Shown: in pieces, positions 4,929-63,814 of the stretch
Layout of the letters: the number at the start of each line of letters is the position of its first letter
Numbering within the stretch: the first letter of the stretch is position 1
Assembly (NCBI RefSeq): GCF_023055435.1
Contig: NW_025964223.1
Location: 41,044,001 to 41,108,000, forward strand
Source of the DNA: Haliotis rufescens
Lineage: Eukaryota
Direction of reading: 5' to 3'
Length of the DNA: 64,000 nucleotides
The notes under the pieces: model-generated
Seen by the model: only the letters and a program-made list of their open reading frames with translations
The model's database searches: none
Told to the model about the DNA's origin: nothing
Program-made: the position numbers and the translations under genes

Positions 4929-7900
4929 CTAGGCGTAAATGTATGGATCATCTCCACTGACCGAGTTGACGTACGAAGGTACTTCACTTCTGTTTATGTG
5001 ACCGTAGCTATGTTCGTCACCGTCTTCACTTGCATTACGTTGTATTCCATTGTACATATTTCTTTCAACATCATGGCTGAGGCCAGAATATGTGTTGGTG
5101 GTGCCACTGGTGGGAATAAGGTCATCTTCTCCCTGGGATCCATCAGGGATGCTCTGCACACCATAATAAACTGACGTTTCAGGATTCGATGAATTACCGT
5201 GCGAGTTCCTGGATAGCCTGATTACCATGCTGCAGCAATAGACGTTTTGCATACGATCATTGAATAATAATTACAAGGTTGCATTTTGACTTCATTACCA
5301 AGTGCCATAATATCACACGTATAAATCAAACAGTTTGATGTACTTACATATATATGATGAGCGCCACTATGATGAGAACCAGGACACCACACACCACTGC
5401 TAAGGGTAAAACAATATTTCCATTGTCTGAAACGAGATACATGAAGCCTTTAACGTGAAGATTTCTGCTTTTGTCTGTGCCTTCATTGCACAACTTGGGC
5501 TTACAAACACACGAGCGCGCGCGTGTATACACACACACACACGTGCATGCACACTCTTACACGAAATTATTTCCATATTTCGTATAACAATCTCATTGGT
5601 TACCTGTGTGTGTTGATGACAGGGCTGTAGAGGTAAGGGATGTCATTGTGACGGTTGATCCCTGAGCAGTAGTATAGGTAGTTATTTCAGACAGTGTAGT
5701 GATGCCGTTGGATATCCGTAGCGTTGTGGCTACTGACGTAGTTAGTGAATCTGTATGGGAAATGAAACACAATGAGTGATTTCCTCTGTGGTTAGTATGC
5801 ATGGCCGTCGTAGGGATTCCGGAAGAAAATACATGAGGTTCCCAGAAACCGTCGCTGGTCTCAGGAGGCGATCAAATGAATCGGGGTGATTGTGTATCTA
5901 CGTACCCTGATGGCGTGGATCGTTGCTCACAAATAACAAATTGTCTGGTCCAGTTTCGATTTTTTACAAACCGCCATCGTATATATAGCTGCAATAATAG
6001 TACGGCAAACAAACAAACAGAGACCAAATCAAACTATTTGTCGACCTCTTAACGGAATAGGAACAATAGATAGGGATAGAAGTTGAGTTCTCGTTACTAA
6101 TTCAACATGGGACAAGTCGCCCTGTCATTTCCTTCAGTCAGGCTCTCTGATTACACCTTCTGGAGTTAGGCTGTACTGATGTTCTAGCATATTGTTCAGG
6201 GCAGTCTATGTCAGCTATTGCGTGTTCTAGTGATGAGATACAGACTCAGGGAAATTCAAGGTAATAACACTGCTGCCATAGACCACACTAGTCTTCTCAA
6301 ATGCGTGTCATCACAAATGTTCATACTCATACCCACACAAATATAACGGTAATCCAACTGATCACCGTTGAGAGGGTCATGAAACATCGTCATCAGGTGA
6401 CACTCACCCATAGAAGTCAAAGGTGTACTTGTTGTTGCTGCAGTGGTCAGTGTGTCCAAAGTACTTGGACTGGTTGCATCTTGTGAACGCGATGGCGCCT
6501 GTGTTGGCGTGGGTACTGGGGTGGTTGATGCTTCCAACGGTTGTCGCTCAGAAGTTATGTTCATTTTACCTGAAGCTGTGAACAATCATTTCTGAAGCAG
6601 TCTGTAGGTCCGAGTTCCGTTTGATTTGAAATAAGTGATGCGACTCCCGGACACTGGAGGAAACTAGCTGACCATAGAGTCGTAGGTCGTAGAGTTGTAT
6701 AATATATGATGAAACCTACTGCATACCAGTCAAGTCATAATATTTTCTTAGTATATTATGGAAAGTAGTTAAAAGGGGGTTTATTTTCATCATGGCTACA
6801 CTGTACTTTTCTTTTGATGGAACCAGCAGTTCTCGAGAGGCTGTCACAATTGTATTTTTCAATAAAATAAATTGAACAAATCAGAAACTATGTATTGTCA
6901 GGATAGATTGGTTCATAAAGGAATTTTATCATTAAAGTGATCACACTGGACTGACTGAAGGTAGATTGAAATAATTACATGTTTTCTCGGATAGCGAGTC
7001 AAAAGTCAAATCAAGACCGGCATCAGATTCTATTTGTTAACTTATTGCTAATTTGATGGTTATCATAGAAGGAGACACGTCAAAAGATAAATTTGATGTA
7101 TACTCTCATACATACCAGAAACACGTATCCATACATTTGATCCATTCTGATAATGGTTATCGTAGACTATTACTACTTCGGCAGCTGTTCCCCGTAATAA
7201 CCTGTTGTTTTGGATCAAGTTCACCCTTGTCCAGAGTTGATTCCCGTCACCTGAGATGTTAAGACTCCCTAACTTTATCCGCTGTTCTACCAATGTTACT
7301 TGTATATTCTCCCCTGTGATCCTAACAACACAGCTGCTGTTCACACCGACACTGTTAGGGAAGCCCGGGGAATGTAGGTACACCGACCCGTTTACTGTTG
7401 TGCTGACTGAACTACACATATCCATACTTTCTGAAACACAATGCATATAACAAGTAGAACAACTTACATGCTAGTATTCAAATTAGTGACATATTCTTTC
7501 ATAACAGGTCATATAAAGCAAATTGCTCCCATGTATTCTTGATTTCGTTTTGGCGCCCGGTTGATCAAGGCTGAAGCTGAAACACTCATGAATCGCTGGA
7601 AATGATATAGCATTATTACCAGGGTCACACTAAGGTCATGATGCAGGGGGCACTTGGCATGTAGTTCTAGTCAGTTGGCATGAGCGTCTAGTCAGGCTCT
7701 AGTCAGGCTCTAGTCAGGAGGTTTAATCAGTTTGCAGTATCCTTTGGTTGTTTATTACAAAACATATACTATAATTGATGGCAATGATGGTGAAAGATGT
7801 TATGAAAGCAGTCCAGTATTCGTACGCGCTTGTTGTTTTGTTATGTCATAAATCACAAACAGAAGTCGGTGCAATTAAACGCTTACTAGGTAACAAAATA

Positions 7901-14795: not shown

Positions 14796-14859
14796 GCCAC
14801 CCCCCCCCCCCCCCCCCCCCCCCCCCCAAACCCAAACCTCTGGAGCAATAGCTTGAGTG

Positions 14860-16630: not shown

Positions 16631-17334
16631 ACCTTAAGACAGACTTGCGGCAGTCGTAGCGCTGAGGTTGTTTTGTACAATGGTACCCTGGTCGGCAGGG
16701 AGTGTGAGTGGGTTGTCCATGTTAAGACTGCGGCATGCTATATCTGTTGACTAGCACAAAAAAACCTCGCATTACAAGCAGTCACACGCACTTGCATAAA
16801 CTTGCATAAACGTCCCTATATATATCCCAAAAAATATCGGATGATGAACAAAGATAATTATTGGAATATGAATATTTTATTTCGGAAGGAAAGTAAAAAC
16901 GCATAATCACATATGTTCAAAGCTGAGAGTAATAATGATTCATAACAAAGCAGATAAACTGAATATATTTATCAAAAAATGATGATTGATCAGTTGATAA
17001 ATGAAATATTGTGAAATGTTATGGAATGAGGATATAACTAGAATGTGTATAATATGGAACAAATATGGAACTCCTTTTCAAACTTAAGAGAAATAATTAC
17101 GAAAATAAAGTTTATATGTATACGTTGGCCTTTATAGAAACACTGGTTAGTCTCACGCTGAATATACAGACCACTATTTTGTTTCAAAGATATGTGAAAA
17201 AGCATAACCAGATATGTTCATAGCTTAGAATAATATTAATTCATAACGAAGTAGGTAAACTAAATTTAATTATCAAGCAAGCTGATTGATCAGGTGATAA
17301 ACGAATCTTTGAAAAATGGGGTGGAATGAGGATT

Positions 17335-18756: not shown

Positions 18757-21700
18757 CTAGGCGTTAATGTATGGATCATCTCCACTGACCGAGTTGACGT
18801 AGGAAGGTCCTTCACTTCTGTTTATGTGACCGTAGCTATGCTCTTCACCGTCTTCACTTGCATTACGTTGTATTACATTGTAGATATTTCTTTCAACATC
18901 ATGGCTGAGGCCAGAATATGTTTTGGTGGTTCCACTGGTGGGAATAAGGTCATCTTCTCCCTGGGATCCATTAGGGATGCTCCGCACACCATAATGAACT
19001 GACGTTTCAGTATTAGATGAATTACCGTGCGAGTTCCTGGATAGCTTGTTTACCATGCTGCAGCAATAGACGTTTTGCATACGATCATTGTATAATATTT
19101 ACAAGGTTTCATATTGACTTCATAGCCAAGTGCCATAATATCACACGTATAAATCAAACAGTTTGATGTACTTACATATATATGATCAGCGCCACGATGA
19201 TGAGACCCATGATACCACACACCACTGCTAAGGGTAAAACAATACTTCCATTGTCTGAAACGAGATACATGAAGTCTTTAACGTAAAAATTTCTGCTTTT
19301 GTCTGTGCCTTCATTGCACAACTTTGGCTTACAAACACACGAGTGCGTGCGTGTATACACACACACGTGAATGCACACTCTTAACCGAAATTATTTCCAT
19401 ATTTCGTATAACAATGTCATTGTTTGTCGTTATTACATGTACATATAGATACCCGTGTGTGTTGATGACAGGGGTGTAGAGGTCAGGGATTTCATTGTGT
19501 CGGTTGATCCCGGAGCAGTAGTATAGGTAGTTCTTTCAGACAGTGTAGTGATGCCGTTGGATATCCATAGCGTTGTGGCTATTGACGTAGTTAGTGAATC
19601 TGTATGGGAAATGAAACACAATGAGTGATTTCCTCTGTGGTTAGTATGCATGGCCGTCGTGGGGATTCCTGAAAATAATACATGAGGTTCCCAGAAACCG
19701 TCGCTGGTCTTAAGAGGCGTCCAAATGGATCGGGGTGGTCAGGCTCGGTGACTTGGTTGATTGTGTATCTACGTACCCTGATGGCGTGGATCGTTGCTAA
19801 CAAATAACAATCACTGGATTGTCTGGTCCAGTTTCGATTATTTACAAACCGCCATCGTATAGCTGCAATAATAGTACGGCAAACAAACACATTGAGACCA
19901 AGTCAAACTATTTTCAGTCAGGCTCTCTGATTACACCTTCTGGAGTTGTGCTGTACTGATGTTATAGCATATTGTACAGGACAGTCTATGTAAGCTATTG
20001 CATGTTCAAGTAATTAGATACAGACTCAGGAAAACTCAAGGTAATAACACTGTTGCCATGGACCACACTAGTCTTCTCAAATGCGTGTCATCACAAATGT
20101 TGATACTCATACCCACACAAATATAATGGTAATCCAACTGATCACCGTTGACCAGGGTCATGAATCATCGTCATCAGGTGACACTCACCCATGGATGTCA
20201 AAGGTGTACTTGTTGTTGCTGCAGTGGTCAGTGTGTCCAAAGTACTTGGACTGGTTGTACCTTGTGAACGTGATGGCGCCTGTGGCGTGGGTGATGGGGT
20301 GGTTGATGCTTCCAATGTTTGTCGCCTAGAAGTTATGTTCATTTGACCTGAAGCTGTGAACAATCATTTCTGTAGCAGTCTCTAGGTTCGAGTTCCATGT
20401 TGATCTTTAATAAGTGAGGCAACTTCTGGACACGGGGGAAACTAGCTGACCATAGAGTCGTAGGTCATGTCATTTATTTACTGAGGAACTTGTTACCATA
20501 CAAATAACTGTGAATACAGTATAATATATGTTGAAACCTACTGCATACCAGTCAAGTCATCATATTTTCTTAGTATATTACGGAAGATTGTTAAAAGATG
20601 GTTTCTTTTCATCATGGCTACACTGTACTTTTCTTTTGATGGAACCAGCTGTTCTGGAGGGGCTGTCACAATTGTATTTTTCAATATAATAAATTTAACA
20701 AAACTATGTATATTTTATTGTCAGGATAGATTGGTTCATGAAAGGAATTTTATCATCGAAGTGATCGCACTGGACTAGATTGAAATAATTACGCGTTTTC
20801 TCGGAAAGCGAGGCAAAATTCTAATCAAGACCGGCAGATTCTATTTGTTAATTTATTGATAAATTGATGGTTATCAAATAAGGAGAAACGTCAAAAGATA
20901 AATTTGATGTATACTCTCATACATACCAGAAACACGTATCCATACATCTGACCAAGTCTGATCCTGGTTATCGTAGACTATTACTATTTCGGCAGCTTGT
21001 CCCGGCAACACCCTGTTGTACTCGTCTACTATCACGCTTGTCCATAGTTGTTTCCCGTCACCTGAGATGTTAAGACTCCCTGTCGTTATCCTCTCTTCTA
21101 TCAATATTACTTGTATATCCTGCCCTGTGATCCTAACAACACAGCTGCCGTTCACACCGACACTGCCAGGGAATCCCGGAGTATGGAGGTACACCGACCC
21201 GTTTACTGTTGTTCTGCCATTACCTGAACTACACATATCCATACTACCTGAAACACAATGCATATGACAAGTAGAACAACTTACATGTTAGTATTCAAAT
21301 TAGTGACATATTGTATCATAACAGGTCATATAAAGCAAATTGCTCCCATGTTGCTTGATTTCGTTTTGTCGCCCGGTTGATCAAGGCTGAAGCTGAAACA
21401 CACATGAATCACTGGAAATGGTATAGCATTATTACCAGGGCCACACTGAGGTCATGATGCAGGGGACAGTTGGCATGTAGTTCTAGTCAGTTGGCATGAG
21501 CGTCTAGTCAGGCCCTAGTCAGGAAGTTTAATCAGTTTTCAGTATCCTTTAGGTGGTAATTACAAAACGTATGCTATAATTGATGGCAATTGTGGTGAAA
21601 GATGTTATGAGAGCAGTCAAGTATTCGTACGCGCTTGTTTTTTTGTTATGTCATGAATCGGGAACAGAAGTCGGTGCAATTAAACACTTACTAGGTATCA

Positions 21701-22051: not shown

Positions 22052-25000
22052 CTGTGTAATTCTCTGAAAAATTATGCCTGTTACCATATGTGTATCTCAT
22101 ACGTACATGTAACTATGGAAGAAACTAGAGTTGTGATGATGCGAAATAATCGACACAATAGATGCACAAAGCCACAATTAAATATGTGTCTGATTACGAT
22201 AAGATCGATATTGTCCCATGTGACTTAAGTTTCATATCCTAAAAGCCTGACACGATGGATGTTTTAAATGTAATTACATTTTTGCCTTAATCAGTTGTGA
22301 AATCGTGGTGGTGGCCTCAAGGAACTACACGCTCACCTCAAGATGTGAAGTCACGGACGACGTCAGATCAATATATACAATCCAAACATGCATAACCAGT
22401 AGCAGTTATAGAATGGTGCATGATACGATGAACCGCGAATCCTTGATAACACAAGTGTTAATTCTCTACAGAAAATATACACTTGTTTGTTCCGTTTACT
22501 GACTTGCAATACATGTGCGTGTACTGTATGTCCGTTACATGCTGTCATGTTCCGATCTCCAAGCAGACACTCCATCCACAAGACCATGGAGGTAGTCCAT
22601 CATAAGACTCATCAGTAAGTCTTGCAATGACATCAACAGGCGAACATACCATGTTGCAATGACATCAACAGGATAACATACAAATTGAATGTTGCAATGA
22701 ACAAGCCAGCATACCATGTTAGTCTTACATTATTCCTGCAGTGTCTCGCAGCAAAATTAACAAATTATCAGATGTTTGTTTGTTTGTTTGTTGTTTAACG
22801 CCGCATCCGATATCAGCAATATTCTATCTACATGAGGGCGATCTGCAAATAGTCTGAGACAGACAATCCAACGATTTACATCGTGAGCATCGGCCAATGC
22901 AATTGAGATACGATGGCCTGAAATCAACCAAGTCACTGATCAGTAAGCCTGGCCACTTGATCCTGTTAGTCACCGCTAAATTGCTGAAGACCAATTCTAA
23001 TGATTAAAGGTTCTTAGGATGCGACTTCAGACTAGAGGTGGGGCGGTCGGGTAGCCTAGTGGTTTAAGCGTTCGCTCGTCACGCCGAAGACCCGGGTTCG
23101 ATTCCCGACTTGGGTACAATGTGTGAAGCCCATCTCTGGTGTCCCCAGCCGTGATATTGCTGGAATATTGCTAAAAGCGGCGTAAAACCATACTCACTCA
23201 CTCACTCAGGCTAGAGGTTGCAAAAACAACAATGCACGTCATCACCCTTATATGTCGTTATACGTTTACGCAATGATTAATCTCACTTTAATCTCACTTA
23301 AACTAGTAGTACTCCGTCGCATCAGACTAATAGAGCCAAGTAGTATTTTTTCTGATTTTAATCAAACCTAAATTTAACACATATATTTGTAAAAAAATGT
23401 TGACAATAATATTTTTGTGCATTATGCTAAAGCATGGTGTGCGCATGAATGCACTGTATCCGATAATCGGGAAAAGCTAAATAATGTTCCAGCTTTACAA
23501 CATCCTGTACATTATAATGGAATCTTGATCGGGCAAACCAGTGCACGATAACACGAGCAACGTGCCAAGATGTAGAGTAGGATGACAGTTGGTTAGACAG
23601 AACAACACTTTGTAACCATCATATCATTGCGATTTGTATGGGTGTTAGTGTGTTCTACTCCAGGAACCACCATGGAGGAAAATACATGCTTCAATGAATG
23701 CATTGTGCGATGTGCAGACAATAACAAGACTTGCAAAGAAAGAGGTTAGATGTCATGTACCACCACATCGACTGTACATGAACGGCAAACACCTACTGTG
23801 ACCAAATCAACCTTTGATAGAAAACGGAAAATAACATGGTTTTTGAACGTACAGAACATTCGCATCTGTATTTATGATTATTGGGTTTTATATCTAAAAT
23901 CATGCATGTGGGTTTAATTGAATCAGAAAGTGGTATTACTGAAAACAACGCATGTTGTTTGCATCGAGCAAGAACTAAACGAAGTGTCACCTTTGATACA
24001 GTTGTACTTTACTTCAGCAGCAGCATCTGTAAAGTTACAGTTTGTTTGGGGTGTTGCGGTTATGGCTTCACGGCATGACTGTTTCCCATTACAGTTGACG
24101 ATCAGGCCATTCTGGTTGCTGGTGTGAACCTTACTACATGCCTGTGCTGATTTCAGACGACATGTCGCGGCGTCTCCATTCCCATACGCCTCTTGCTCGA
24201 CATGTATCCATTCATCGGCAGAACACTGAAGCTGTACTGTGAAGGTTCCCGCCAACCCCTCTATACATCTGCTCCCAGTTCTTGTGTCACCTTTGAATAT
24301 AAGGTAACTCGTTCACTGTCAAATATACATCGCAAAATATAATCGAAATGTTTTTACGTCAGTCTCAGGTAAATACCACATTGAAACAAACATGCTGCAA
24401 TCAACATTGATCTGGAAGTGACAGGTGCATCAATGTATTTATGACAATTGTCAATGTAATATTGTGTGTCGAGAATGAGACAATACTGAGGAAATCATGA
24501 TGTTTACATATGTAACTGTTGAGTCGTTTATTATCGCATTCCATTTGTCACTAGACATTGCGTGTATTTATGTATTTTGCTGACAATTAAATTATATAAA
24601 CGAATCCCGTGACATTTTACAGAAGTGATGTCATGACTGACATTTATCCGTCTAAGTCTGATATAGGATATTGAATTAATATTGTAGTAATGGTCTCACA
24701 TCTTTTAGAAATAATAAAATTGTATTTGCGTAAATAAAATTATTGATGCAAAATTCCATATCTGATAGACTGTTTTGAAAGACATGTAACTTTTTGCTGT
24801 TTGATACCATCTTATGTTTCCTTGACAAATCGTGTAGCAACACCAGAAAGTGTAAATGCAAGTGCGCTGTTACATTCAGTAACATCAAGGGAGTTGAACA
24901 TTTAAGCTGTTGTGTTGTTGCATGTGTGTACTTTTAGTCACAACAAATCGCAAGTACCAGGATCAAATGGTACCATCTGTTAGTACTCAAACATTAGTAA

Positions 25001-29089: not shown

Positions 29090-32000
29090 CTAGGTGTTAA
29101 CATATAGACCAACTCCACTTCCAGAGTTAACATAGGCAGGTCCTTGTCTGCTGGGAATGCGACCATAGCTATGTTCGTCACCATCTTCACTGGCATTACG
29201 TTGCATTCCATCGTAGACATTCGTCTCATTGTAATGGCTGAGGCCAGAATATGTGTTGGTGGTGCCACTGGTGCCATTGGTGGGAGTAAGGTCATCTTGT
29301 CCCTGGGATCCACTGGGGATGGTTTGCATACCAAGATGAGTTGACGTTTCAGTATAATTCGATGCATCACCGTGCATATCCGTCCTGGATAGCTTGTTTA
29401 CCATGCTGCAGGGACAAACGTTTTGTGTACTGTTATTGTATAATTTTCACTATCATAAGGTTATATTTGACTTCTCTCAAAGTGTCCTATAGTTTCTCAT
29501 GAAACAGTTACTTACATATATATGATGAGCGCCACTATGATGAGAACCAGGACACCGCACACCACTGCTAAGGGTAACACAATACTTCCATTGTCTGAAA
29601 CGGAATACGTGAAGCCTTTAACTTGAAGATTCATACTGGTCTCGCTGCGTTACTTGCGCAACACGGACTTACACGCACACGCACGTGTGCGGAAACCAAT
29701 ACACACGCATACACATACTTACTCACAATTATTTTAATATTTCTCGTAAAACAATGTCATTGGTTGCCGTTAATGCATGTACATATAGATACCTGTGTCA
29801 GAGAATCATATAACCAGTTTAAAGACCTGTTATATATATGTTCATAGAACGTCAGATCAAACACGAACAATTCAAAAACAAGGGACATAACTGGTGGGAT
29901 GCGAAATTTGTTGTTTGTTGTTTCAAGCCGCACTCAGCAGTATTACACTCTGTCAGCTATATGACGGCGGTCTGTAAATAATCGAGTCTGGACCAGATAG
30001 CCCAGTGATTGACATCATGTGTATCAATTCACGCTATTGGGATACGATGTCATGCATCAACCAAGTCAGCGAGCCTGACCGCCCGATCTCATTACTCGCC
30101 TCTAACGACAAACATAGTCGCTTTTTATTAAAGCATGGAAGTACTATAAACAACTGTATTTTCAGAAATATACACGCATCTATTTTAGAGTTCTAGATTC
30201 AATAACAGATGTGATGATAAACACACGTGAAGATGTATCAGAATTATATATAGACATAACACATGAAAAGGCTGTAACAGATATTCAGGTATGCAAAGTG
30301 GAAAGGATCCAGGTTTCAGTGGAATAGCTATAGAATTCTTTAAATATGCACCAAAGATATGCATATCCAAAAACAGCGTTTATTTTGGGGTTAAATTGCC
30401 TCTTCACAAGAAAGGTGATGTTGATAAACCTGAGAACTATAGGCCAATAACCTTATTAGATGTATCAAAGTTTGTATTTCTTGCTATGAAAATGCGATGT
30501 AAACAACTAAGTTTACTGTAAAGAGCAGAATGGCGCTTTTACGAAACAAACATCAATGTATCATTAATGCATGTCATCACAAATGACATACTCATACCCA
30601 CACAAATATAATGATAATCAAACTGAACACCGTTGACCAGGGTCATGAAACATCGTCATCAGGTAACACTCACCCACAGAAGTCATAGGTGTACTTGTTG
30701 TTGCTGCAGTGGTCAGTGTGTCAAAAGTACTTGGACTGGTTGTACCTCGTGAACGTGATGGCGCCTGTGGCGTGGGTACTGGGGTGGTTGACACATCCAA
30801 TGTTTGTCGCTCAGAAGTTATGTTCATTTGACCTGAAGCTGTGAACAATCATTTCTGTACGTAGCAGTCTCTATGTTCGAGATCCATGTTGATCTTAAAA
30901 AAGTGATGCGACTCCTGGGCATTGGGGGAAACTAGCTGACCATAGAGCCGTGAGTAATTTAATCATTTTTTGAGGAACTTGTTACCATACGATGAACTGT
31001 GAATACAGTATAATATATGCTGAAACCTAATGTATACCAGTCACGTCACATGTCATCAAATTAGATGTTTGTGGCTTCACTGCACCTTTCTTTTGATGGA
31101 ACCAACAAGTCTGGAGAGGCGGTCGCTATTGTATTTTTCAATATAGTCCATTGAACAAATCAGAAGCTATATTTATTTTACTGTCAGGATAGATTGGTTC
31201 ATGAAAGGAACTTCATCAATAAAAGGGATCACACTAGACTGACTGAATGTAGATTGTAATAATTATATATATTTTCTCGGAAAGCGAGGCACAATTCAAT
31301 TCACGATCGGCATCAGATTTGATTTGCTAATTGATTGATAAATTGATAGTTATCATATCAGGAGACACGTCAAAAGATAAATTTGATTTATAACCTCACA
31401 CATACCATCAACACGTATCCATAGATTTGCCCCAGCCTGATCATGGTTGTCATAGACTATTACTACTTCGGCAGCTGTTTCCGGCAATACCCTGTTGTAT
31501 TGGTCCACGTTCACGCTTTCCCAGAGTTGTTTACCGTCACCTGAGATGTTAACTAGCCCTTGTCTCATCCGCTCTTCTACCAATGTTACTCGTATATTCA
31601 TTCCTTTGATCCTAACAGCACAGCGTCTGTTCACAGCGACACTGTTAGGGTAGCCCGGGGAATTGAGGTACAAGGGCGCCCCTACTGTTGTTCTGACAGT
31701 ACCTGAACTACACATATCCATACTACCTGAAACACAATGCATATAACATGTTGAAGAACGTATATGTTTTGATTCAAATTAGCGACATATTGTATGGTTC
31801 ATATCAAACAAATTGCTTTCAAACAAACGTGAATTTGTGCTCGCGTCCATTTGATCAAGGCTGAAATGAACTTGAAGCTCAAATCAAGAACCAACATTCA
31901 TAAATGTTATAGCATTATTACCAGGGAAAGGCGTTTCCATCTTACTGGTAGCGCCAAGGTCATGATCCAGTTGACAGTTGGCATGCACTTTTAGTTGGTC

Positions 32001-39599: not shown

Positions 39600-40061
39600 A
39601 TGCAAAATGGTGGTTCTGAGTTAGCCGGAGCTCTCAAATCATCGGCGTTTCCTCTCCCAACATCTTATGACGTAAGCGCCACCAAACCAGGTATTTGTCT
39701 GAAACCATGTGGGTTCTGACTCTGCATCAACGAATGCAACCATGACAGCCAATGCTCTGGTAGTAAGAAGTGTTGTAGTTCTGGCTGTGGTCGCGTTTGT
39801 TCTGAACCTTATCCTTACATCCCCACCATCAAACCGGGAGTGTGTCCAGCGTCTCGCAGCTCTGCGGTATGTTCACGGAGACATTCCTGTAGCCACGATG
39901 GAGAATGCCCAGGTTCCAGCAAGTGCTGCTGCGTGGGTAGCGGATGTCGTGTCTTTGTTCAGCAAGTTATTTCCCTACCCAAAATGGCGACTGTTCCTTT
40001 ACTACCTCAACGGACATTGTCACAGTTCCCAATGATAGGAAAAGGTTATGTTAGACGGTAG
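39600..40061 (+). pseudogene. Two-WAP (four-disulfide core) domain protein exon, perlwapin/crustin-like, disrupted
   Basis: One frame encodes KPGICLKPCGF*LCINECNHDSQCSGSKKCCSSGCGRVC and KPGVCPASRSSAVCSRRHSCSHDGECPGSSKCCCVGSGCRVF. Lesions: in-frame TGA at 39717-39719, last Cys of WAP2 reads Phe, and the likely acceptor reads ccg (39597-39599) instead of cag. AATAAA at 40668. Confidence 0.85.
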
Positions 40062-51247: not shown

Positions 51248-52332
51248 TACCACAAAGCCATTGAAAACACAATAGCTTTTGATGAGCGTACTTGTGAAAA
51301 GAGCAATTCCCTGAAACCTTTTCAAACATCATGAGATTTCTGTGAGAGATATGTGTCCCCTTGTGTCAGTTCGGGTTCGAACCACCTTGGAGCAATGAAT
51401 CAGAAAGAGAAACGCAACTGTGCACACTGCACCGAAACACAATCACTGCTGCTGGACACATGCTGCACGTGGAAAGCTAGATCCCAGGTTCTTTAAAAGC
51501 ACACACGAAAATGGTCATCCGTCACTTGTTCAATATGCCAAGACTCGACCAAGCCAGCAGGAACCAAGCGATCAGAATGCTGCAAGAAGGGGCAACTCAA
51601 GTGATTGTCGCCAGACATGTTAACGTCCATCCATGCAAGATAACTCGACTGCTGCATCCTTTCAACCATTTTTTACCTTTTGGTACTTTTGGGACCCGTC
51701 AACGCCGCTGTGTTTTGGAAAGGTGTCGCTTTGGAGGAGGCGGTACAATGGTATGGGAAGTACCATCAATTGTCGTTCCCACAGTCGGTGGTTATCCAAG
51801 GCAACCTCAATGTTCCAGATTATGTGAAAAATACCCTTCGCCTAGCACTATTGCCATTACTGGCTCAACATGGCGCCCTACACAAGCGTGTCTTCCAGCA
51901 TGACAATGCACGTCCACGAGGTTCACGGGAGACTTTCTGAACAGGAACAACATCCTGCCATGTCACCTGACATGAATCCAATTGAACACTTATGGGACGA
52001 GCTTTGACACCAACCGCCTCAGACAGTAGCAGAGTTGACACAGTCCCTACAACATCAGGGGCGGTCAACAACGTTGTCAGTCCATGCCTCGGCGACTTCA
52101 GGATTACGTCAGTGTACATGGTGGACATACCTGTTATTGATCCCCGGTGGTCCCGGCTACGTTCTGAGCCTCTGTGACGTCATCCAACGGGCATGTTTCT
52201 TACGGACTTTATTGCTTACATTTCATGTGATGGGTGTGTTTGTCATTTTGGTTGGTTTCATTTGGTTTTCTTTCACTGTAATAAAATACGCACCTTCTGA
52301 ACACTGAAGTGCGTTTTCAATGGCTTTGAGTA
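51248..52332 (+). mobile_element. Tc1-like transposon, duplicate of the 17.3-kb copy
   Basis: Same TIRs, same position relative to the receptor stop codon and same transposase remnants (RFGGGGTMVW, FQHDNARP, SPDMNPIEHLWD). Confidence 0.9.
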
Positions 52333-52481: not shown

Positions 52482-55400
52482 CTAGGCGTTAATGTATGGA
52501 TCATCTCCACTGACCGAGTTGACGTAGGAAGGCCCTTCACTTCTGTTTATGTGACCGTAGCTATGCTCGTCACCGTCTTCACTTGCATTACGTTGTATTA
52601 CATTGTAGATATTTCTTTCAACATCATGGCTGAGGCCAGAATATGTGTTGGTGGTGCCACTGGTGGGAATATGGTCATCTTCTCCCTGGGATCTATTAGG
52701 GATGCTCTGCACACAATAACGAACTGACGTTTCAGGATTAGATGAATTACCGTGCGAGGTCCTGGATAGCTTGTTTACCATGCTGCAGCAATAGACGTTT
52801 TGCATATGATCATTGTATAATATTTACAAGGTTGCATATTGACTTCATAGCCAAGTGCCATAATATCACACGTATAAATCAAACAGTTTGATGTACTTAC
52901 ATATATATGATCAGCGGCACGATGACGAGACCCATGATACCACACACCACTGCTAAGGGTAAAACAATACTTCCATTGTCTGAAACGAGATACATGAAGT
53001 CATTAACGTGAAGATTTCTGCTTTTGTCTGTGCCATCATTGCACAACTTTGGCTTACAAACATACGAGCGCGTGTGTGTATACACACACACGTGCATGCA
53101 CACTCTTAACCGAAATTATTTCAATATTTCGTATAGCAATGTCATTGGTTGTCGTTATTACATGTACATATAGATACCTGTGTGTGTTGATGACAGGGCT
53201 GTAGAGGTCAGGGATTTCATTGTGTCGGTTGATCCCGGAGCAGTAGTATAGGTAGTTCTTTCAGACAGTGTAGTGATGCCGTTGGATATCCGTAGCGTTG
53301 TCGCTATTGATGTAGTTAGTGAATCTGTATGGTAAATGAAACACAATGAGTGATTTCCTCTGTGGTTAGTATGCATAGCCGTCGTAGGGATTCCGGAAAG
53401 GAATACACGAGGTTCCCAGAAACCGTGGCTGGTCTTAAGAGGCGTCCAAATGGATCGGGGTGGTTAGGCCCGGTGACTTGGTTGATTGTGTATCTACGTA
53501 CCCTGATGGCGTGGATCGTTGCTCACAAATAACAATCACTGGATTGTCTGGTCCAGTTTCGATCACTTACAAACCGCCATCGTATAGCTGCAATAATAGT
53601 GCTTCAAACAAACACACACAGAGCAAATGAAACTATTTTTTCGACCTCTTACAAAACAGGAACAATAGATAGGGATAGAAGTCCAGCTCTCGTCACTAAT
53701 TAAACATGGGACAAGTCATTTCATTCATTCAGGCTCTCTGATCACACCTTCTGGAGTAGTGCTGTAATGATGTTTTAACGTATTCTACAGGACAGTGTGT
53801 GTAAGCTATTACATGTTCTAGTAATTAGAAACAGACAAAAAAAACTCAAGGTAATAAGACTGTTGCCATCGGCCACATTAGTCTTCTCAAATGCGTGTCA
53901 TCATAAATGTTCATACTCATACCCACACAAATATAATGGCTATCCAACTGATCACCGTTGAGCAGGGTCATGAAACATCGTCATCAGGTGACACTCACCC
54001 ATAGATGTCAAAGGTGTACTTGTTGTTGTGGCTGCAGTGGTCAGTGTGTCCAAAGTACTTGGACTTGTTGTACCTTGTGAACGTGATGGCGCCTGTGGCG
54101 TGGGTACTGGGGTGGTTGATGCATCCAATGGTTGTCGCCTGGAAGTTATGTTCATTTGGCCTGAAGCTGTGAACAAAAATTTGTGTAGCAGTCTCTAGGT
54201 CCGAGTTCCATGTTGATTTGAAATAAGTGATGCGACTTCTGGACACGGGGGAAACTAGCTGACCATAGAGTCGTAGGTCATTTATTTACTGAGGAACTTG
54301 TTACCATACAAATAACTGTGAATACAGTCCAATATATGTTGAAACCTACTGCACGCCAGTGAATTCATCATATTTTCTTAGTATATTACGGAAAATTGTT
54401 AAAAGATGGTTTCTCTTCATTATGGCTACACTGTACTTTTCTTTTGATGGAACCAGCAGTTCTGGAGAGGATGTCACTATTGTATTTTTCAATATAATAC
54501 ATTGAACAAATCAGAAACTATGTATGTTTTATTGTCAGAATAGATTGGTTCATGAAAGGAACTTTACCATTAAATTGATGGCACTGGACTGACTGAAGGT
54601 AGATTGAAATAATTACATGTTTTCTCGGAAAGCGTGGCAAAATTCAAATCAAGACCGGCGTCAGATTCTATTTGTAAATTTATTGATCAATTGATGGTTA
54701 TCATATAAGGAGACACGTCAAAAGATAAAATTGATTTATACACTCATACATACCATCAACACGTATCCATACATATGACCCATTCTGATCATGGTTGTCG
54801 TAGACTATTACTATTTCGGCAGCTGTTCCCGGCAACACCCTGTTGTATTGGTCCAAGTTGAAGCTTATCCAGAGTTGTTTCCCGTCACCTGAGATAATAA
54901 GCAACCCTGCCTTCATCCGCTCGTCTACCAATGTTACTCGTAAATTCTGCCCTGTGATCCTAACAACACAGCTGCCGTTCACACCGACACTGCTAGGGAA
55001 GCCAGGGGAATGGAGGTACACCGACCCGTTTACTGACAGTGTTGTGCTGACTGAACCACAGATATCCATACTACCTGAAACACAATGCATATTACAAGTA
55101 GAACAACTTATAAGTTGGGATTGAAATAAGTGACATATTGTATCATAACAGGTCACATCAAGCAAATTGCTCCCATGTATTCTTGATTTTGTTTTGACGC
55201 ACGGTTGATCAAGGCTGAAATGAAGCTGAAACTCAAGAACAATCACTCATGAATCACTGGAAATGGTGTAGCATTATTACCAAGGTGACACTAAGGTCAT
55301 GATGCAGGGGACAGTTGACAGTTGTAGTTCTAGTCAGTTGGCATGAGCGTCTAGTCATGCCCTAGTCAGGAGGTTTAATCAGTTTGCAGTATCCTTTGGG

Positions 55401-55547
55401 TGTTAATTACAAAACATTTACTATAAATTAATGGCAATGGTGGTGAAAGTTGTTATGAAAGCAGTCCAGTATTCGTACACGCTTGTTGTTTTGTTATGTC
55501 ATCAATCACAAACAGACGTCGGTGCAATTAAACACTTACTAAGTAAG

Positions 55548-55594
<47 letters not shown>

Positions 55595-58366
55595 CTGTGT
55601 AAGTTTCTGTAAAGTGATGCCTGTTACCACATTTGTATCTCATACGTACATGTAACTATGGAAGAAACTAGAATTGTGATGATGCGAAATAATCAACACA
55701 CGATAAGTTCGATATTGTCCCATGTGATCACTTAATTTTTATATCCTAAAAGCCTGACACGATGGATGTTTTAAATATAATTACATTTTTGCCTCAATCA
55801 GTTGTGAAATCGTGGTGGTAGCCTCAAGGAACTACACGCTCACCTCCAGATGTGAAGTCATGGACGACGTTTTCGATCCGATACAATCCAGACATGCATA
55901 ACCAGTAACAGTTAAAATTATCGCATCGTGCTTGATACGTTGAACCGCGAATCCTTGATAACACAGGTGTTAATTCTCTACAGAAAATATACACTTGTTT
56001 GTTCCGTTTACTGACTTGCAATACATGTGCGTGTTCTGTATGTCAGTTACATGTCGTCATGTTCCGATCTCCAAGCAGACACTCCATCCACGAGACCATG
56101 GAGCTAGTCCATCATAAGGCTCATCAGTAAGTCTTGCAATGACATCAACAGGCTAACATACCATGTTAGTCTTACATTATTCCTGCAGTGTCTCGCAGCA
56201 AAATTAACAAGTTATCAGATGTATGTTTGTTTGTTGTTTAACGCCGCACCCAAGATCAGCAATATTATATTTAAATGACGGCGAACTGCAAATAGTTTGG
56301 GACAGACAATCCAATGATTTACATCGTAAGAATCGGACAATGCAATTGAGATACGATGGCCTAAAATCAACCAAGTCACTGATTTGTAAGCCTGGCCACT
56401 TGATCCTGTTAGTCACCGCTTAATTGCTGAAGACCAATTCTAATGATGATAGGTTCTTAGGATGCGACTGGATCAACCGTATGCCCCTATTATAATATGA
56501 TATATTATAAGACATCAGGCTAGAGGTTGCCAAAACAACAATGCACGTCATCACCCTTATATGTCGTTATACGTTTACGCACTATGATTAATCTTATATT
56601 AATCTCACTTACACTCTGTCGCATCAGACTGTATAATAGAGCCAAGTAGTATTTTTTTCTGATTTTAATCAAACCTAAATGTAACACATATATTTGTAAA
56701 ATATGTTGACAAAAATATTTTTGTGCATTATGCCAAAGCATGGTGTGCGCAGGAATGCACTGTATCCGATAATCTGGAAACGCTAAATAATGTTCCAGCT
56801 TTACAACATCCTGTACATTACGGAATCTTGATCGGGCAAACCAGTGCACGATAACACGAGCAACGTGCCAAGATGTAGAGTAGGATGACAGTTTGTTAGA
56901 CAGAACAACACTTTGTAACCATCCTATCATTGCGATTTGTATGGGTGTTAGTGTGTTCTACTCCAGGAACCACCATGCAGGAAAATACATGCTTCAATGA
57001 ATGTATTGTGCGATGTGCAGACAATAACAAGACTTGCATTTATGCATTTATGACTATTGGGTTTATATCTAAAATCATGCATGTGGGTTTAATTGAATCA
57101 GAAAGTGATATTACTGAAAACAACGCATGTTGATTGCGTCGAGCAAGAACTAAACGAAGTGTCACCTATGATACAGCTGTAGTTTACTTCAGCAGCATCT
57201 GTGAAGTTACAGTTTGTTTGGGGTGTTGCGGACATGACTTCACGGCACGACTGTTTCCCATTACAGTTGACGATCAGGCCAGTTTGGCTGCTGTTGTGAA
57301 CCTTACTACACGACTCTGTTGATTTCAGACGACATGTCGCGGCGTCTCCATCCCCATACGCCTCTTGCTCGACATGTATCCATTCACCGGCAGAACACTG
57401 AAGCTGTATTGTGAAGGTTCCCCACAACCCCTCTATACATCTGTTCCCAGTTCTGGTGTCACCTTTGAATATAAAGTAACTCGTTCACTGTCAAATATAC
57501 TTCTCTAAATATTATCGAAAGGTTTTTACGTCAGCCTCAGGTACATACCACATTGAAACAAAAATGCTAGCGGCAATCAACATTGATCTGGAAGTGACAG
57601 GTGCATGAATGTAGTTATGACAATTGTCAATGTAATACTGTGTGTCGAAAATGAGACACTACAGAGGAAATCATGATGTTTGATTATGTAACTGTTGAGT
57701 CGTTCATTATCGCATTCCATTTATCACTAGACATTACGTGTATTTATGTATTTTGCTGACAACTAAATTATACAAACGAATCCCGTGACATTTTACATAA
57801 GTGGTGTCATGACTGACATTTCTTCATCTTAGTCTGATATAGGCTATTGAATCAATATTGTAGTAATGGTCTCAAATCTATCAGAAATTGTATTGCGTAA
57901 ATAAAATTATTGATGCGAATTTCAATATCTGATAGACTGTTTTGAGATACATGTAACTTTATGCTGTTTGATACCACCTTATGTTTCCTTGACAAATCGT
58001 CTAGCAACACTAGAAAGTGTAAATGCATGTGCGCTGTTACATTCAGTGACATCAGGGGAGTTGAACATTTAAGCTGTTGTGTTTTTGCATGTGTGTACTT
58101 TTAGTCACAACAAATCACAAGTACCAAGATCAAATGTCAACCATTGTCGCAATTTCCCGATTTCACTCAAAGATTAGTAAGCAAACACGTCCGGGAGTGA
58201 CACTTTTAACATATTGAACTCTGATGAAAATGCAGTTGCCAACACGAACAATCTTGGTACACGTACTGAAGTTCACAAACCAATGGAAAGTCTATCTGCC
58301 TATTTACTCACCGTGTGCAGCCAATAAGAAATACACAGAAGCCATAAACACTCTTTCAGTATGCAT
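52482..58366 (-). CDS. Receptor copy D: paralogue (or allele) of B, ~455 aa
   Basis: Exons 58366-58312, 57462-57166, 55074-54754, 54166-53999, 53324-53178, 52979-52901, 52782-52482 sum to 1368 nt, open and in phase. Introns are collinear with B. Confidence 0.85.
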
Positions 58367-60482: not shown

Positions 60483-63400
60483 TTATTTGTTATACTTTAT
60501 ATGTACATATTCCCCCTTATAAAGAAGACTGGCTGATCTCAAAGTGATTATAGAGCTACAAGAGCCTAAAGCACAAGCTTGTGTGCTGTCTCTAGGTGTT
60601 AACATATGGACCAACTCCACTTCCAGAGTTAACATAGGAAGGTTCTTGTCTACTGGTAATGCGACCGTAGCTATGTTCGTCACCATCGTCACTGGCATTA
60701 CGTTGCATTCCATCGTAGACATTCGTCTCATTGTAATGGCTGAGGCCAGAATATGTGTTGGTGGTGCCACTGGTGCCACTGATGGGAGTAAGGTCATTTG
60801 TCCCTGGGATCCACTGGGGATGGTTTGCATACCAAGATGAGTTGACGTTTCAGTATAATTAGATGTGTCACCGTGCATATCCGTCCTGGATAGCTTGTTT
60901 ACCATGCTGCAGGGACAAACGTTTAGTGTACTGTTATTGTATAATTTTCACTATCATAAGGTTATATTTTGACTTCTCTCGAAGTGTCATATAGTTTCTC
61001 ATGAAACAGTTACTTACATATATATGATGAGCGCCATGCCCACTATGATGAGAACCAGGACACCACACACCACTGCTAAGGGTAACACAATACTTCCATT
61101 GTCTGAAACGGAATACGTGAAGACTTTAACTTGAAGATTTATACTGGTCTCTCTGCGTTACATGCGCAACACGGACTTACACGCACACTTACTCACAATT
61201 ATTTTAATATTTCTCGTAAAACAATGTCATTGGTTGCCGTTATTGCATGTACATATAGATAGCTGTGTCAGAGAATCATATAACCAGTTTCAAGGCCTGT
61301 TATTTATATGTTCATAGAACGTCAGATCAAACACGAACAATTAAAAAACTAGGGACATAACTGGTTGGATGCGAAATTGTTGTTTGTTGTTTCAAGCCGT
61401 ATTACGCCGTATTTCACTCTGTCAGCTATATGACGGCGGTCTGTAAATAATCGAGTCTGGACCAGATAGCCCAGTGATTGACATCATGCGTATCAATTCA
61501 CGCTATTGGGATACGATGTCATGCATCAACCAAGTCAGCGAGCCTGACCACTCCATCCCGTTAGTCGCCTCTTACGACAAACATAGTCGCCTTTTACTAA
61601 AGCATGGAAGTACTATAAACAACTGTATTATCAGAAATATACACGCATCTATTCTAGAGTTCTAGATTCAATAACAGATGTGATGATAAACACAAGTAAA
61701 GATGTATTAGAATTATATATAGACATAACGCATGAAGAGGATGTAACAGATATTCAGGTATGCAAAGTGGAAAGGCTCCAGGCTTCAGTGGTATAGCTAT
61801 AGAATTCTTTAAATATGCACCAAAGGTATGCATATCCAAAATAGTGGTCATTTGGGGGTTAATTTGCCTCTTCACAAGAAAGGTGTTGTTAATAAACCTG
61901 AGAACTATAGGCCAATAACCTTGTTAGAAGTATCAAAGTTTGTATTTCTTGCTATGAAAATGCGATGTAAACAACTAAGTTTACTGTAAAGAGCAAAATG
62001 GCGCTATTACGAAACAAACATCAATGTATCATCAATGCATGTCATCACAAATGACATACTCATACCCACATTCAGTCAGGCTCTCTGATCAGACCTTCTG
62101 GAGAAGTGCTGTACTGATGTTTTAACGTATTCTACAGGACAGTCTATTTAAACTATTACATGTTCTAGTAATTAGATACAGACAGGAAAACTCAAGGTAA
62201 TAACACTGTTGCCATCGACCATACTAGTCTTCTCAAATGCGTGTCATCACAAACGTTCATACTCATACCCACACAAATATAATGATAATCAAACTGAACA
62301 CCGTTGACCGGGGTCATGAAACATCGTCATCAAGTGACACTCACCTTGTGTACCTTGTGGACCTTGTGGACCTTGTGTACTTTGTGTACCTTGTGGACCT
62401 TGTGAACGTGATGGCGCCTGTGTTGGCGTGGGTGAAGGGGTGGTTGATGCATCCCATGTTTGTCTCTTGAAAGTTATGTTCATTTGACCTGAAGCTGTGA
62501 ACAATCATTTCTGTTCATACTCATGCAGGTAATGACACCACAATAATATGTTAAATTATATTATTCTTGCATGTTCATATATGTTCTAGTAATTAGATAT
62601 CAGTATGAAAACTCAAGGAAATAACACTGTAGCCAGTAACCACACTTGTCAAATTCATGTTATCACAAACGTTCATACTCATACCCACATAAATATAATG
62701 GTAATCCAACTGATCACCGTTGACCAGGGTCATGAAACATCGTTATCAGGTGACGCTCACCCATAGAAGTCAAAGGCGTAGTTGCTGTTGCTGCAGTGAT
62801 CGTCAGTGTGTCCAAAGTACTCGGTCTGGTTGTACCTTGTGAACGTGATGGCTGCTGTGTTGGCGTGGGTGATAGGGTGGTTGATACATCCAATGTTTGT
62901 CGCCTAGAAGTTATGTTCATTTGACCTGAAGCTGTGAACAATCATTTCTGTAGCAGTCTCTAGGTTCGAGTTCCATATTGATCTTAAAAAGGTGATGCGA
63001 CTCCTGGGCATTGGGGGAAAGTAGATGACCATTGGGCCGTAGGTAATTTAATCAGTTTTTGAGGAACTTGTTACCATACGATGAACTGTGAATACAGTAA
63101 AATATATGCTGAAACCTAATCCATACCAGTCACGTCAAATGTCATCAAATTAGATGTTTGTGGCTTCACTGCACCTTTCTTTTGATTGAACCAACATGTC
63201 TGGAGAGGCGGTCGCAATTGTATTTTTCAATATAATACATTGAACAAATCAGAAGCTTTATTTATTTTACTGTCAGGATAGATTGGTTCATGAAAGGAAC
63301 TTCATCAATAAAAGGGATCACACTAGACTGACTGAAGGTAGATTGTAATAATTATATATATTTTCTCGGAAAGCGAGGCAAAATTCAATTCACGATCGGC

Positions 63401-63814
63401 ATCAGATTCGATTTGCTAATTGATTGATAAATTGATAGTTATCAATCAGGAGACACGTCAAAAGATAAATTTGATTTATAACCTCACACATACCATCAAC
63501 ACATATCCATAGATTTGCACCAGCCTGATCATGGTTGTCATAGACTATTACTACTTCTGCAGCTGTTCCAGGTAATACCCTGTTGTATTGGGACACGTAC
63601 ACGCTTTCCCAGAGTTGTTTCCCGTCACCTGAGATGTTAACTAGCCCTTGTCTCATCCGCTCTTCTACCAATGTTACTCGTATACCCATTCCTTTGATCC
63701 TGACAGCACAGCGTCTGTTCACAGCGACACTGTTAGGGTAGCTCGGGGAATTGAGGTACAAGGACGCCCCTACTGTTGTTCTGACAGTACCTAAACTACA
63801 CATATTCATACTAC
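60483..63814 (-). CDS. Receptor copy E (5' end beyond window): paralogue of C with a duplicated stalk exon and a frameshifted tail
   Basis: Exons 63814-63494 (CUB-like), 62931-62761 and 62494-62345 (two stalk-1 copies), 61102-61018 (TM, +6 nt in frame), 60906-60483 (tail). A 1-nt deletion near 60798 relative to C shifts the tail frame. May be a pseudogene. Confidence 0.7.
61660..62020 (+). mobile_element. Non-LTR RT fragment, duplicate in copy E
   Basis: Collinear with 30200-30560 (GKAPGFSGIAIEFFK, KPENYRPITLL). Confidence 0.8.

What the first reader, a model, noticed from the sequence alone, without database searches (positions are those of the whole stretch)
54754..57462. Ectodomain hypervariability between the closest copies (B vs D)
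By hand count, B and D differ at about 32/107 residues in the CUB-like exon and about 17/100 plus one gap in the lectin exon. They differ at only about 9/100 in the tail and 2/49 in stalk exon 2, and the flanking introns align closely. D's CUB also carries C-type patches (VTLV.ERM, DQYNRVLP, NHDQ, WIRVD). Inference: diversifying selection and/or gene conversion focused on the ligand-binding surface, chiefly the CUB-like domain.
Basis: partly seen in the sequence, partly recalled or inferred. Interest (0 to 1): 0.7.

Follow-up and report, generated by a model that had tools for sequence, protein, structure and literature searches.

The report
Patchwork abalone surface-receptor genes
Two neighbouring copies of an abalone cell-surface receptor gene differ most in one outer domain because that stretch descends from different relatives in each copy, likely swapped in by gene conversion; selection for new binding surfaces is possible but only borderline.

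Summary
The counts are right: B and D differ at 32/106 CUB-exon residues, 17/98 lectin, 9/99 tail and 2/48 stalk 2. Seven of the 32 come from two independent 6-nt insertions. The pair is not the closest for this exon. At least 18 close paralogs lie in two clusters 6 Mb apart. D shares a 1.25-kb tract (55267-54020: CUB exon, intron 3, stalk 1) with a copy 108 kb away (1.4% divergence inside, 6.0% outside; permutation P=0.0005). B's CUB groups with another copy; B and D are sisters only at the 3' end. Silent divergence rises with replacement divergence (B-D CUB dN 0.150, dS 0.149), and dN/dS is near 1 in the tail too. Between clusters, exons are about half as diverged as flanking introns, suggesting exon-limited exchange. 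The 'C-type patches' are mostly family-majority states. Codon site tests are nominally significant, more so for the lectin than the CUB exon, but fall to P about 0.05-0.1 against nulls with recombination. The protein is a SUEL-like domain lacking sugar-binding residues, a CUB fold (Z about 12), a mucin stalk, a membrane helix and an ITAM-bearing tail. Verdict: mosaic ancestry shown, conversion likely, diversifying selection open.

The parts
58312..58366 (-). Copy D exon 1, signal peptide
   Evidence: ATG to GT donor; homologous exon in 14 of the 20 copies modelled
57166..57462 (-). Copy D exon 2, SUEL/RBL-like domain lacking the sugar-binding residues
   Evidence: Pfam PF02140 E 7.8e-6, below the curated cut-off; weak PDB matches to CSL2 and latrophilin RBL
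54754..55074 (-). Copy D exon 3, CUB-fold domain
   Evidence: Model pLDDT 92.7; top 22 structural matches are CUB-domain proteins, Z up to 12.1, rmsd about 2 A; no Pfam CUB hit
54020..55267 (-). Tract shared almost identically with copy Q (G000:C445 near 40.991 Mb, 108 kb away): end of intron 2, CUB exon, intron 3, most of stalk exon 1
   Evidence: 17/1182 differences inside vs 200/3322 outside; permutation global P=0.0005; D+Q 100/100 in tract tree
55034..55039 (-). 6-nt insertion shared by D, Q and S among the 7 copies printed; B and P carry a different 6-nt insertion a few codons earlier
   Evidence: Nucleotide comparison; protein alignment of 17 copies
53999..54166 (-). Copy D exon 4, Ser/Thr/Pro stalk 1
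   Evidence: junction 53324/53999 seen in 3 of 4 RNA-type runs
53178..53324 (-). Copy D exon 5, Thr/Ser stalk 2
   Evidence: junction 52979/53178 in 3 of 4 runs
52901..52979 (-). Copy D exon 6, transmembrane helix
   Evidence: junction 52782/52901 in 3 of 4 runs
52482..52782 (-). Copy D exon 7, cytoplasmic tail with six tyrosines
52596..52643 (-). ITAM consensus (YxxL-x8-YxxI) in the tail
   Evidence: Present in 10 of 10 core tails; shuffle P=0.006 for D's tail
52767..53520 (-). Stretch where D is unusually close to B (stalk 2, TM, start of tail)
   Evidence: permutation global P=0.019; B+D 100/98 in the 3' tree
23991..24290 (-). Copy B lectin-like exon
20927..21247 (-). Copy B CUB exon, sister to copy P (G000:C445 near 40.977 Mb)
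   Evidence: 6.8% from P vs 13.6% from D; P+B 99/99
18757..20353 (-). Copy B stalk, TM and tail exons (20189-20353, 19453-19599, 19176-19254, 18757-19057)
31406..31726 (-). Copy C CUB exon, sister to copy E, not to D
   Evidence: C+E 100/100; 16% from D
7116..7430 (-). Copy A CUB exon; copy A has a frameshift in its lectin exon
63494..63814 (-). Copy E CUB exon; copy E has a frameshift in its tail exon

Best explanation
B and D differ most in the CUB exon because that part of each gene descends from a different paralog, most likely through gene conversion among tandem copies of a receptor family, and not because this pair was driven apart by selection on the CUB domain. Shown: D's CUB exon, intron 3 and stalk 1 are nearly identical to copy Q; B's group with copy P; B and D are sisters only over stalk 2, TM and tail; silent and replacement divergence rise together. 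Inferred: non-allelic conversion (or unequal crossover) made these tracts. The two ectodomain exons also exchange short patches with more distant paralogs, including the cluster 6 Mb away, where only the exons remain similar enough to pair. This keeps them at 10-14% divergence whatever the introns do. Inferred, weaker: some selection for new variants at 10-20% of ectodomain codons, in both domains. Inferred function: a single-pass recognition receptor whose lectin-like and CUB domains bind a non-sugar (probably protein) ligand at the end of a mucin stalk and signal through the tail ITAM to a Syk/Shark-type kinase; ligand and tissue untested.
For: D-Q: 1.4% divergence over 55267-54020 vs 6.0% outside, Fisher P=3.6e-12, best of 36 pairs in a permutation scan, global P=0.0005. 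B+D as a clade is rejected for the CUB exon (p-AU 0.0002) and for intron 3 alone (1.8e-7); D+Q is rejected for the 3' part (0.013), where B+D has 100/98. B-D CUB dN 0.150, dS 0.149; B-D stalk2+TM+tail dN 0.036, dS 0.036. Over the nine core copies dN/dS is 0.94 for CUB, 0.74 for lectin, 1.14 for tail, all intervals spanning 1. Between clusters, CUB dN 0.148 and dS 0.168 vs 0.28 in the best-aligning part of the 200-nt flanks; lectin dS 0.194 vs 0.28-0.30. In the lectin exon, nearby sites are more compatible than permuted ones (P=0.0002), and two intron-defined groups are rejected as clades (p-AU 0.008 and 0.034). S matches D's first 62 CUB nt, insertion included, but the rest of its exon groups with A. 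A 326-nt contig from a public DNA run spans the upstream tract edge with 3 differences, so D's structure there is unlikely to be an assembly error.
Against: The mechanism (conversion vs unequal crossover) and the direction D to Q or Q to D are not determined. The tract and region borders used in the AU tests were chosen after seeing the data. The within-exon recombination test is not significant for CUB (P=0.14). Monophyly of the core copies in the CUB exon is not rejected (p-AU 0.09), nor that of cluster 2 (0.10), nor two of four lectin groupings (0.16, 0.31). Strict fourfold sites in CUB (p 0.093, 0.046-0.148) are close to intron values (0.07-0.09), and non-CpG fourfold sites between clusters (0.175, 0.078-0.283) overlap the flank value, so the excess in the exon could be mainly at replacement sites. 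CUB exon divergence exceeds intron 3 in 35 of 36 core pairs (not independent), which selection would also give. Only 2 of 36 pairs reached global significance in the tract scan. The downstream tract edge was not bridged by a listed contig (the list was cut). Expression of D itself is not shown.
Confidence: 0.72

Rival explanations
1. Diversifying selection on the ligand-binding surface is the main driver of ectodomain divergence, with conversion only shuffling the variants.
For: M1a vs M2a 2dlnL 13.0 for CUB (13% of sites, omega 2.6) and 23.6 for lectin (17%, omega 3.1); M7/M8 and M8a/M8 agree. The signal stays when four broken copies are dropped (17.0 and 17.6). Core CUB dN 0.134 (0.105-0.165) exceeds intron values of 0.07-0.09. 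Simulated nulls reached the CUB value in 0 of 16 runs without recombination and 3 of 63 with one breakpoint, and the lectin value in 4 of 89. Several lectin candidate sites (73, 75, 76, 77) lie at the end of strand 4 and start of loop 2, the region that forms the binding pocket in latrophilin RBL.
Against: The non-ectodomain control (stalk2+TM+tail) is also nominally significant (10.3, P=0.006) and is reached in 2 of 22 nulls. Recombining nulls pass the nominal 5% threshold in 11 of 63 (CUB, 49-codon blocks), 13 of 28 (CUB, 33-codon) and 42 of 89 (lectin) runs; the CUB value is reached in 3 of 28 with 33-codon blocks. Pairwise dN/dS is near 1 everywhere. Variable CUB sites are spread over strands and loops (mean 2.3 vs 2.7 residue states). 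The CUB signal is weaker than the lectin one.
Confidence: 0.35
2. Relaxed constraint in a decaying tandem array: the ectodomain exons drift nearly neutrally, and the B-D contrast is only the age of each segment.
For: dN/dS near 1 in every exon. 5 of 12 cluster-1 copies have frameshifts, a stop or a lost donor site, a sixth has a lost acceptor. Decayed orphan TM-tail cassettes lie between genes.
Against: About half of lectin codons sit in a class with omega near 0.12. Seven lectin cysteines are invariant or nearly so. All six tail tyrosines are invariant in 10 of 10 copies (64 of 99 columns are, so P about 0.07). Family members are spliced in RNA-type runs. The family is expanded in four Haliotis species. 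Neutral decay alone does not give exons less diverged than introns between clusters.
Confidence: 0.15
3. Assembly artefact: D or Q is a chimera of paralogs or of two haplotypes.
For: Tandem array of copies about 85-95% alike, with N runs in the window, one 1.5-2 kb beyond the end of D's aligned 3' flank.
Against: D and Q differ at 17 sites spread through the tract. A contig from a public DNA run bridges D's upstream tract edge and another matches the CUB middle with one difference. Tree conflict involves many copies, not one.
Confidence: 0.05

Closest known systems
Hydractinia Alr family in the allorecognition complex (10.1101/2022.03.04.482883; passages read)
   Same: Clustered single-pass receptors, one exon per domain, genes mixed with pseudogenes, ITAMs in many tails.
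   Different: Alr ectodomains are Ig and Fn3 folds; here RBL-like plus CUB. No allorecognition role or allelic data here.
Biomphalaria PTC1/GRC and PTC2 polymorphic transmembrane clusters (PMC7494358; passages read)
   Same: Gastropod clusters of diverse single-pass proteins proposed to act at the host-parasite surface.
   Different: PTC2 proteins have no known domains, paralogs are under 50% identical and the diversity is allelic; here paralogs are 66-96% identical in the CUB exon with recognisable folds. No homology was tested.
Arabidopsis RPP8 NLR family (10.1101/694240; abstract read)
   Same: Tandem copies plus a distant locus (2 Mb there, 6 Mb here) share variation by intergenic conversion.
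   Different: Intracellular plant NLR with population data, where neutral simulations did not suffice; here one assembly and only borderline selection.
Receptor-attached RBL/SUEL domains: latrophilin-1, EVA-1, PKD1-like 2 (PMC2430599; passages and section 6 read)
   Same: N-terminal RBL-like domain on a membrane receptor, often without the sugar-binding residues.
   Different: Followed by a CUB fold and mucin stalk, single-pass, multi-copy; the PDPCPG loop motif is also lost.
CUB domains (neuropilin, TSG-6, Kremen, cubilin, C1r/C1s, MASP)
   Same: Same fold: Z up to 12.1, rmsd 2.0-2.5 A over about 98 residues; N-terminal Cys and SPGFP..C motif.
   Different: 9-16% identity, no Pfam CUB hit, only one Cys pair.
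Oyster CgIgR ITAM receptor (PMC6994640; abstract read)
   Same: Mollusc membrane receptor with a tail ITAM reported to recruit Syk and promote phagocytosis.
   Different: Five Ig domains; nothing tested here on Syk binding.

Membership tests
CUB domain | CUB beta-sandwich fold | tested here: met
   pLDDT 92.7 model; Foldseek top hits CUB, E 9e-6; VIA-align Z 12.1, unrelated folds 6.8 or less
CUB domain | Sequence match to Pfam PF00431 | tested here: not met
   No hit for D's exon at E up to 1; the family profile does reach multi-CUB proteins through its N-terminal half and cubilin at E 0.005
CUB domain | Second disulfide and acidic calcium site of many CUB domains (recalled, not from a call) | tested here: inconclusive
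   Only two cysteines in the exon, so no second disulfide; the calcium positions could not be aligned reliably, and a paper search found nothing
SUEL / rhamnose-binding lectin domain | Eight-cysteine RBL sequence pattern | tested here: inconclusive
   PF02140 over positions 1-80 of 80, 26.6 bits vs cut-off 31.4; PDB RBLs at E 0.017-0.47; seven conserved cysteines; the domain did not fold confidently (pLDDT under 50)
SUEL / rhamnose-binding lectin domain | Sugar-binding Glu at +1 from the first Cys, and loop-2 Gly and Lys | tested here: not met
   Position +1 is Ile (Lys or Thr in two copies); the Lys aligns to Ala and the Gly to Phe/Tyr/Val/Ala in all 16 copies; requirement from PMC2430599
ITAM-bearing activating receptor | Yxx[I/L]x(6-9)Yxx[I/L] in the tail | tested here: met
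   10 of 10 core tails, 3 of 3 close H. cracherodii proteins; absent from C's tail and from the short H. rubra and H. asinina tails checked; consensus
ITAM-bearing activating receptor | Phosphorylation and Syk/Shark recruitment | not testable with these tools
   Needs a cell assay
Gene family evolving by interlocus gene conversion | Bounded tracts of high identity between non-allelic copies, with tree conflict across the borders | tested here: met
Gene family evolving by interlocus gene conversion | Non-reciprocal transfer (conversion rather than crossover) | not testable with these tools
   One haploid assembly; no pedigrees or haplotypes
   Nominal P 0.0015 (CUB) and 8e-6 (lectin); empirical 3/63 to 3/28 (CUB) and 4/89 (lectin)
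Immune or allorecognition receptor | Expression in immune cells or at contact surfaces; binding of non-self ligand | not testable with these tools
   Only unlabelled RNA-type contigs showing splicing of family members

The most novel reading that the evidence does not exclude
Abalones carry an undescribed germline-diversified recognition system: about 20 ITAM-signalling receptors whose sugar-blind RBL and CUB exons are shuffled by exon-limited gene conversion between two clusters 6 Mb apart and sorted by diversifying selection, giving each animal a combinatorial repertoire of binding surfaces against pathogens or non-self, comparable to Alr or KIR-type loci.
Probability: 0.3. Interest if true: 0.72.

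Novelty: new member of a known kind. Interest (0 to 1): 0.45.

Why it matters
The evolutionary process (tandem receptors, birth and death, paralog exchange) is well known from other hosts. The family is not: the homologs found carry only automatic names, and three targeted paper searches listed no description of it, though subscription journals are not covered. It would be a concrete candidate locus for disease resistance or self/non-self recognition in farmed and threatened abalones, with an ITAM that predicts a testable signalling route. It is also a caution: pairwise domain 'hypervariability' between tandem copies can come from mosaic ancestry alone.

Tried and rejected
C as donor of D's CUB patches: rejected; the states are mostly family-majority and D is further from C than from B. 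Pairwise dN/dS above 1 for B-D: not significant in any exon. CpG mutation as the cause of high exon dS: non-CpG fourfold sites are no lower, but intervals are wide. Full-length fold: mean pLDDT 41.5, lectin domain unresolved, not used; variable sites could not be mapped in 3D because model coordinates are not provided. Pfam gave no CUB hit for the exon. No homolog search with the full spliced protein was run; homologs come from the CUB exon. Run search: no RNA holder listed on record; four runs guessed to be RNA were laid and show only that family members are spliced. An abalone resequencing paper on virus selection had no mention of CUB, SUEL or the H. rubra locus in its main text; supplements not read. 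Paper searches on CUB ligand loops and on recombination false positives gave nothing usable, so that bias is documented by my own simulations. Left out of codon models: copies N and O and the six C423 copies (distant), F for lectin and CUB, A for lectin, Q and F for stalk 1, C and E for the tail; gap-bearing columns dropped. One null run was cut by the time limit. The null model (independent coalescent trees per block) is crude; its blocks were tuned to observed diversity and incompatibility. The search of earlier findings by place and by sequence returned nothing.
Full report
Setting. The window is G000:C445:41044001-41108000. It holds five tandem copies (A-E) of a minus-strand gene. The CUB-like exon of copy D finds 27 matches in the genome: 13 in this cluster (40.97-41.19 Mb, one a fragment), 8 in a second cluster about 6 Mb away and 6 distant ones on contig C423. 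I fetched all three regions and modelled 20 copies. Copy D has seven exons: signal, lectin-like, CUB-like, two Ser/Thr stalks, transmembrane helix, tail. All 40 proteins found with the CUB exon are from Haliotis (four species); one from H. rufescens is 100% identical. Contigs from four runs guessed to be RNA cover the exons and join three junctions at exactly my coordinates, each in 3 of 4 runs; they differ from D at many sites, so this shows the family is spliced, not that D is expressed.

The observation. Seven of the 32 fall in eight codons where the two copies carry different 6-nt insertions; the clean count is 25/98. In nucleotides the CUB exon differs at 42/303 sites against 83/963 in the alignable flanking introns (P=0.011). 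The contrast is real.

Why the CUB exon stands out. B and D are not each other's nearest relatives there. D and copy Q, 108 kb away, differ at 17 of 1182 sites over 55267-54020 and at 200 of 3322 outside it. In a GENECONV-style scan of nine copies (637 polymorphic sites, 2000 permutations) this tract had global P=0.0005; the only other significant one of 36 pairs was B-D over 53520-52767 (P=0.019). Trees agree: D+Q and P+B are supported in the tract and in the CUB exon, B+D is rejected for the exon (p-AU 0.0002) and for intron 3 alone (1.8e-7), and in the 3' part B+D is supported 100/98 while D+Q is rejected (0.013). Borders were chosen after seeing the data, so these p-values are generous. 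Consistent with this, silent divergence moves with replacement divergence: B-D CUB dN 0.150, dS 0.149; stalk2+TM+tail 0.036 and 0.036. A 326-nt contig from a public DNA run spans D's upstream tract edge with three differences, which argues against a local misassembly; the other edge was not bridged in the listed pieces.

The C-type patches. At the sites named, D mostly holds the family-majority residue and B the rarer one (V49 13/17, M53 10/17, Q75 15/17, H94 14/17; D106 6/17). C groups with E at 100/100. There is a grain of truth: at a few sites (codons 57 and 106) D and Q share states with C, E and cluster-2 copies against most of the other core copies, and D's second-nearest CUB exon is a cluster-2 copy (9.9%). 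But core monophyly in this exon is not rejected (p-AU 0.09).

Exon-limited exchange. Ectodomain exons sit at about 10-14% from D whichever paralog is taken, while introns range from 5% to unalignable. Between the clusters CUB dN is 0.148 and dS 0.168, against 0.28 in the best-aligning part of the flanks; with dN/dS near 0.9, protein constraint does not explain that. Within the cluster the reverse holds: CUB dS 0.143 (0.098-0.195) against 0.065-0.093 in nearby introns and 0.044 in the tail. Both fit exchange confined to exons that carries older variants in. The lectin exon shows clear internal recombination (P=0.0002) and ignores the intron-1 lineages (p-AU 0.008). Against this: strict fourfold CUB sites give 0.093 (0.046-0.148), close to introns, the non-CpG estimate between clusters overlaps the flanks, and the internal test for CUB is not significant (P=0.14). 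This layer is likely, not shown.

Selection. I wrote and fitted codon site models (17 CUB exons, 98 codons; 16 lectin exons, 89 codons). M1a vs M2a gave 2dlnL 13.0 for CUB (13% of sites, omega 2.6) and 23.6 for lectin (17%, omega 3.1); M7/M8 and M8a/M8 agreed. The control (stalk2+TM+tail, 10 copies) also scored 10.3; tail alone and stalk 1 did not (3.1, 1.5). Under simulated no-positive-selection data with recombining trees, the nominal threshold was passed in 17-47% of runs. The observed CUB value was reached in 0/16 runs without recombination, 3/63 with 49-codon blocks and 3/28 with 33-codon blocks; the lectin value in 4/89; the control in 2/22. Observed CUB incompatibility (0.24) lies between the first two nulls. 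Evidence for selection is therefore borderline for both domains and does not single out CUB. Candidate sites: CUB 27, 42, 55, 57, 106; lectin 14, 27, 58, 73, 75-77, 93, 95. Lectin 75-77 lie at the start of the loop that forms the pocket in latrophilin RBL. CUB 27, 55 and 57 lie in or beside loops that I recall as the ligand end of CUB domains; this comes from no call.

What the protein is. The second domain folds with pLDDT 92.7 and matches CUB domains at Z up to 12.1, well above other folds (Foldseek), despite no Pfam hit. The first is RBL/SUEL-like but lacks the Glu, Gly and Lys that PMC2430599 shows or models as needed for rhamnose binding, in all 16 copies aligned; that paper argues that such receptor domains bind non-carbohydrate ligands. 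All ten core tails carry an ITAM consensus (shuffle P=0.006) and six invariant tyrosines. An oyster ITAM receptor is reported to recruit Syk (PMC6994640, abstract). The likeliest mechanism is a ligand-binding ectodomain held out by a mucin stalk, signalling through the ITAM; every step after the motif is inferred. Five of twelve cluster-1 copies look broken, as in birth-and-death families. Distant relatives with lectin-like remnant, CUB-like domain, stalk and membrane helix occur in a pearl oyster, and a partial CUB-like match in a vent snail.

Comparison and novelty. The closest systems are Hydractinia Alr genes, Biomphalaria PTC clusters and plant RPP8; the likeness is in architecture or evolution, with no homology tested. 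Searches listed no paper on this family. Two earlier scan notes describe the same architecture, one in the second cluster of this genome; they are leads, not support.

Verdict. Observation confirmed. Interpretation partly supported: mosaic ancestry is shown, conversion is the likely cause, the donor is not C, and diversifying selection remains open and is not CUB-specific. Interest 0.45.

Noticed in passing
window 52596-52643 and all core tails: Canonical ITAM in 10 of 10 core tails; a different ITAM sits in one alternative tail of cluster-2 genes, where annotated isoforms join one ectodomain to either of two TM-tail modules (P0014 vs P0015).
   Followed up: partly
window about 14840-15400; also G000:C445 near 41.017, 41.020, 41.115, 41.135, 41.149, 41.152, 41.179, 41.184, 41.187 Mb: Orphan TM-plus-tail cassettes between the genes, mostly decayed; they could be relics of lost copies or former alternative tails.
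   Followed up: partly
window 9896-10212 (A), 60592-60906 (E); outside the window copies Q, R, F, G: Broken copies: A lectin frameshift, E tail frameshift, F truncated lectin and CUB stop, Q stalk-1 frameshift at the end of the D/Q tract, R lost exon-1 donor, G lost stalk-2 acceptor.
   Followed up: partly
window 57470-58305 (intron 1) across copies: Intron 1 splits the core copies into two old lineages about 0.3 apart (Q,R,B,D,F,G vs P,S,A,H), while introns 3-6 show no such split: the 5' and 3' halves of the genes have been recombined.
   Followed up: partly
window 39700-40060 (+): WAP four-disulfide-core gene fragment, Pfam PF00095 E 1.3e-15, lying between copies C and D.
   Followed up: no
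window 43861-44691 (-): 277-codon open frame with no Pfam hit.
   Followed up: no
window 17300-18150 and 51400-52070: Related degenerate transposase-like fragments downstream of the B and D tails; resemblance to Tc1/mariner is recalled, not tested.
   Followed up: no
window 1-1300 (-): Overlapping open frames with a CCHC-like motif that look like a retroelement fragment (no Pfam hit for 776-1300).
   Followed up: no
proteins P0016 and P0023: Database gene models join exons of neighbouring copies (H with G's tail; B's lectin with A's CUB), and the model for D is truncated (P0001): likely annotation errors in the array, cross-copy splicing not excluded.
   Followed up: no
window 53460-53590 and 56220-56430: A short interspersed repeat inside introns 2 and 4 is very abundant in the RNA-type runs and recurs many times in the window.
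   Followed up: no
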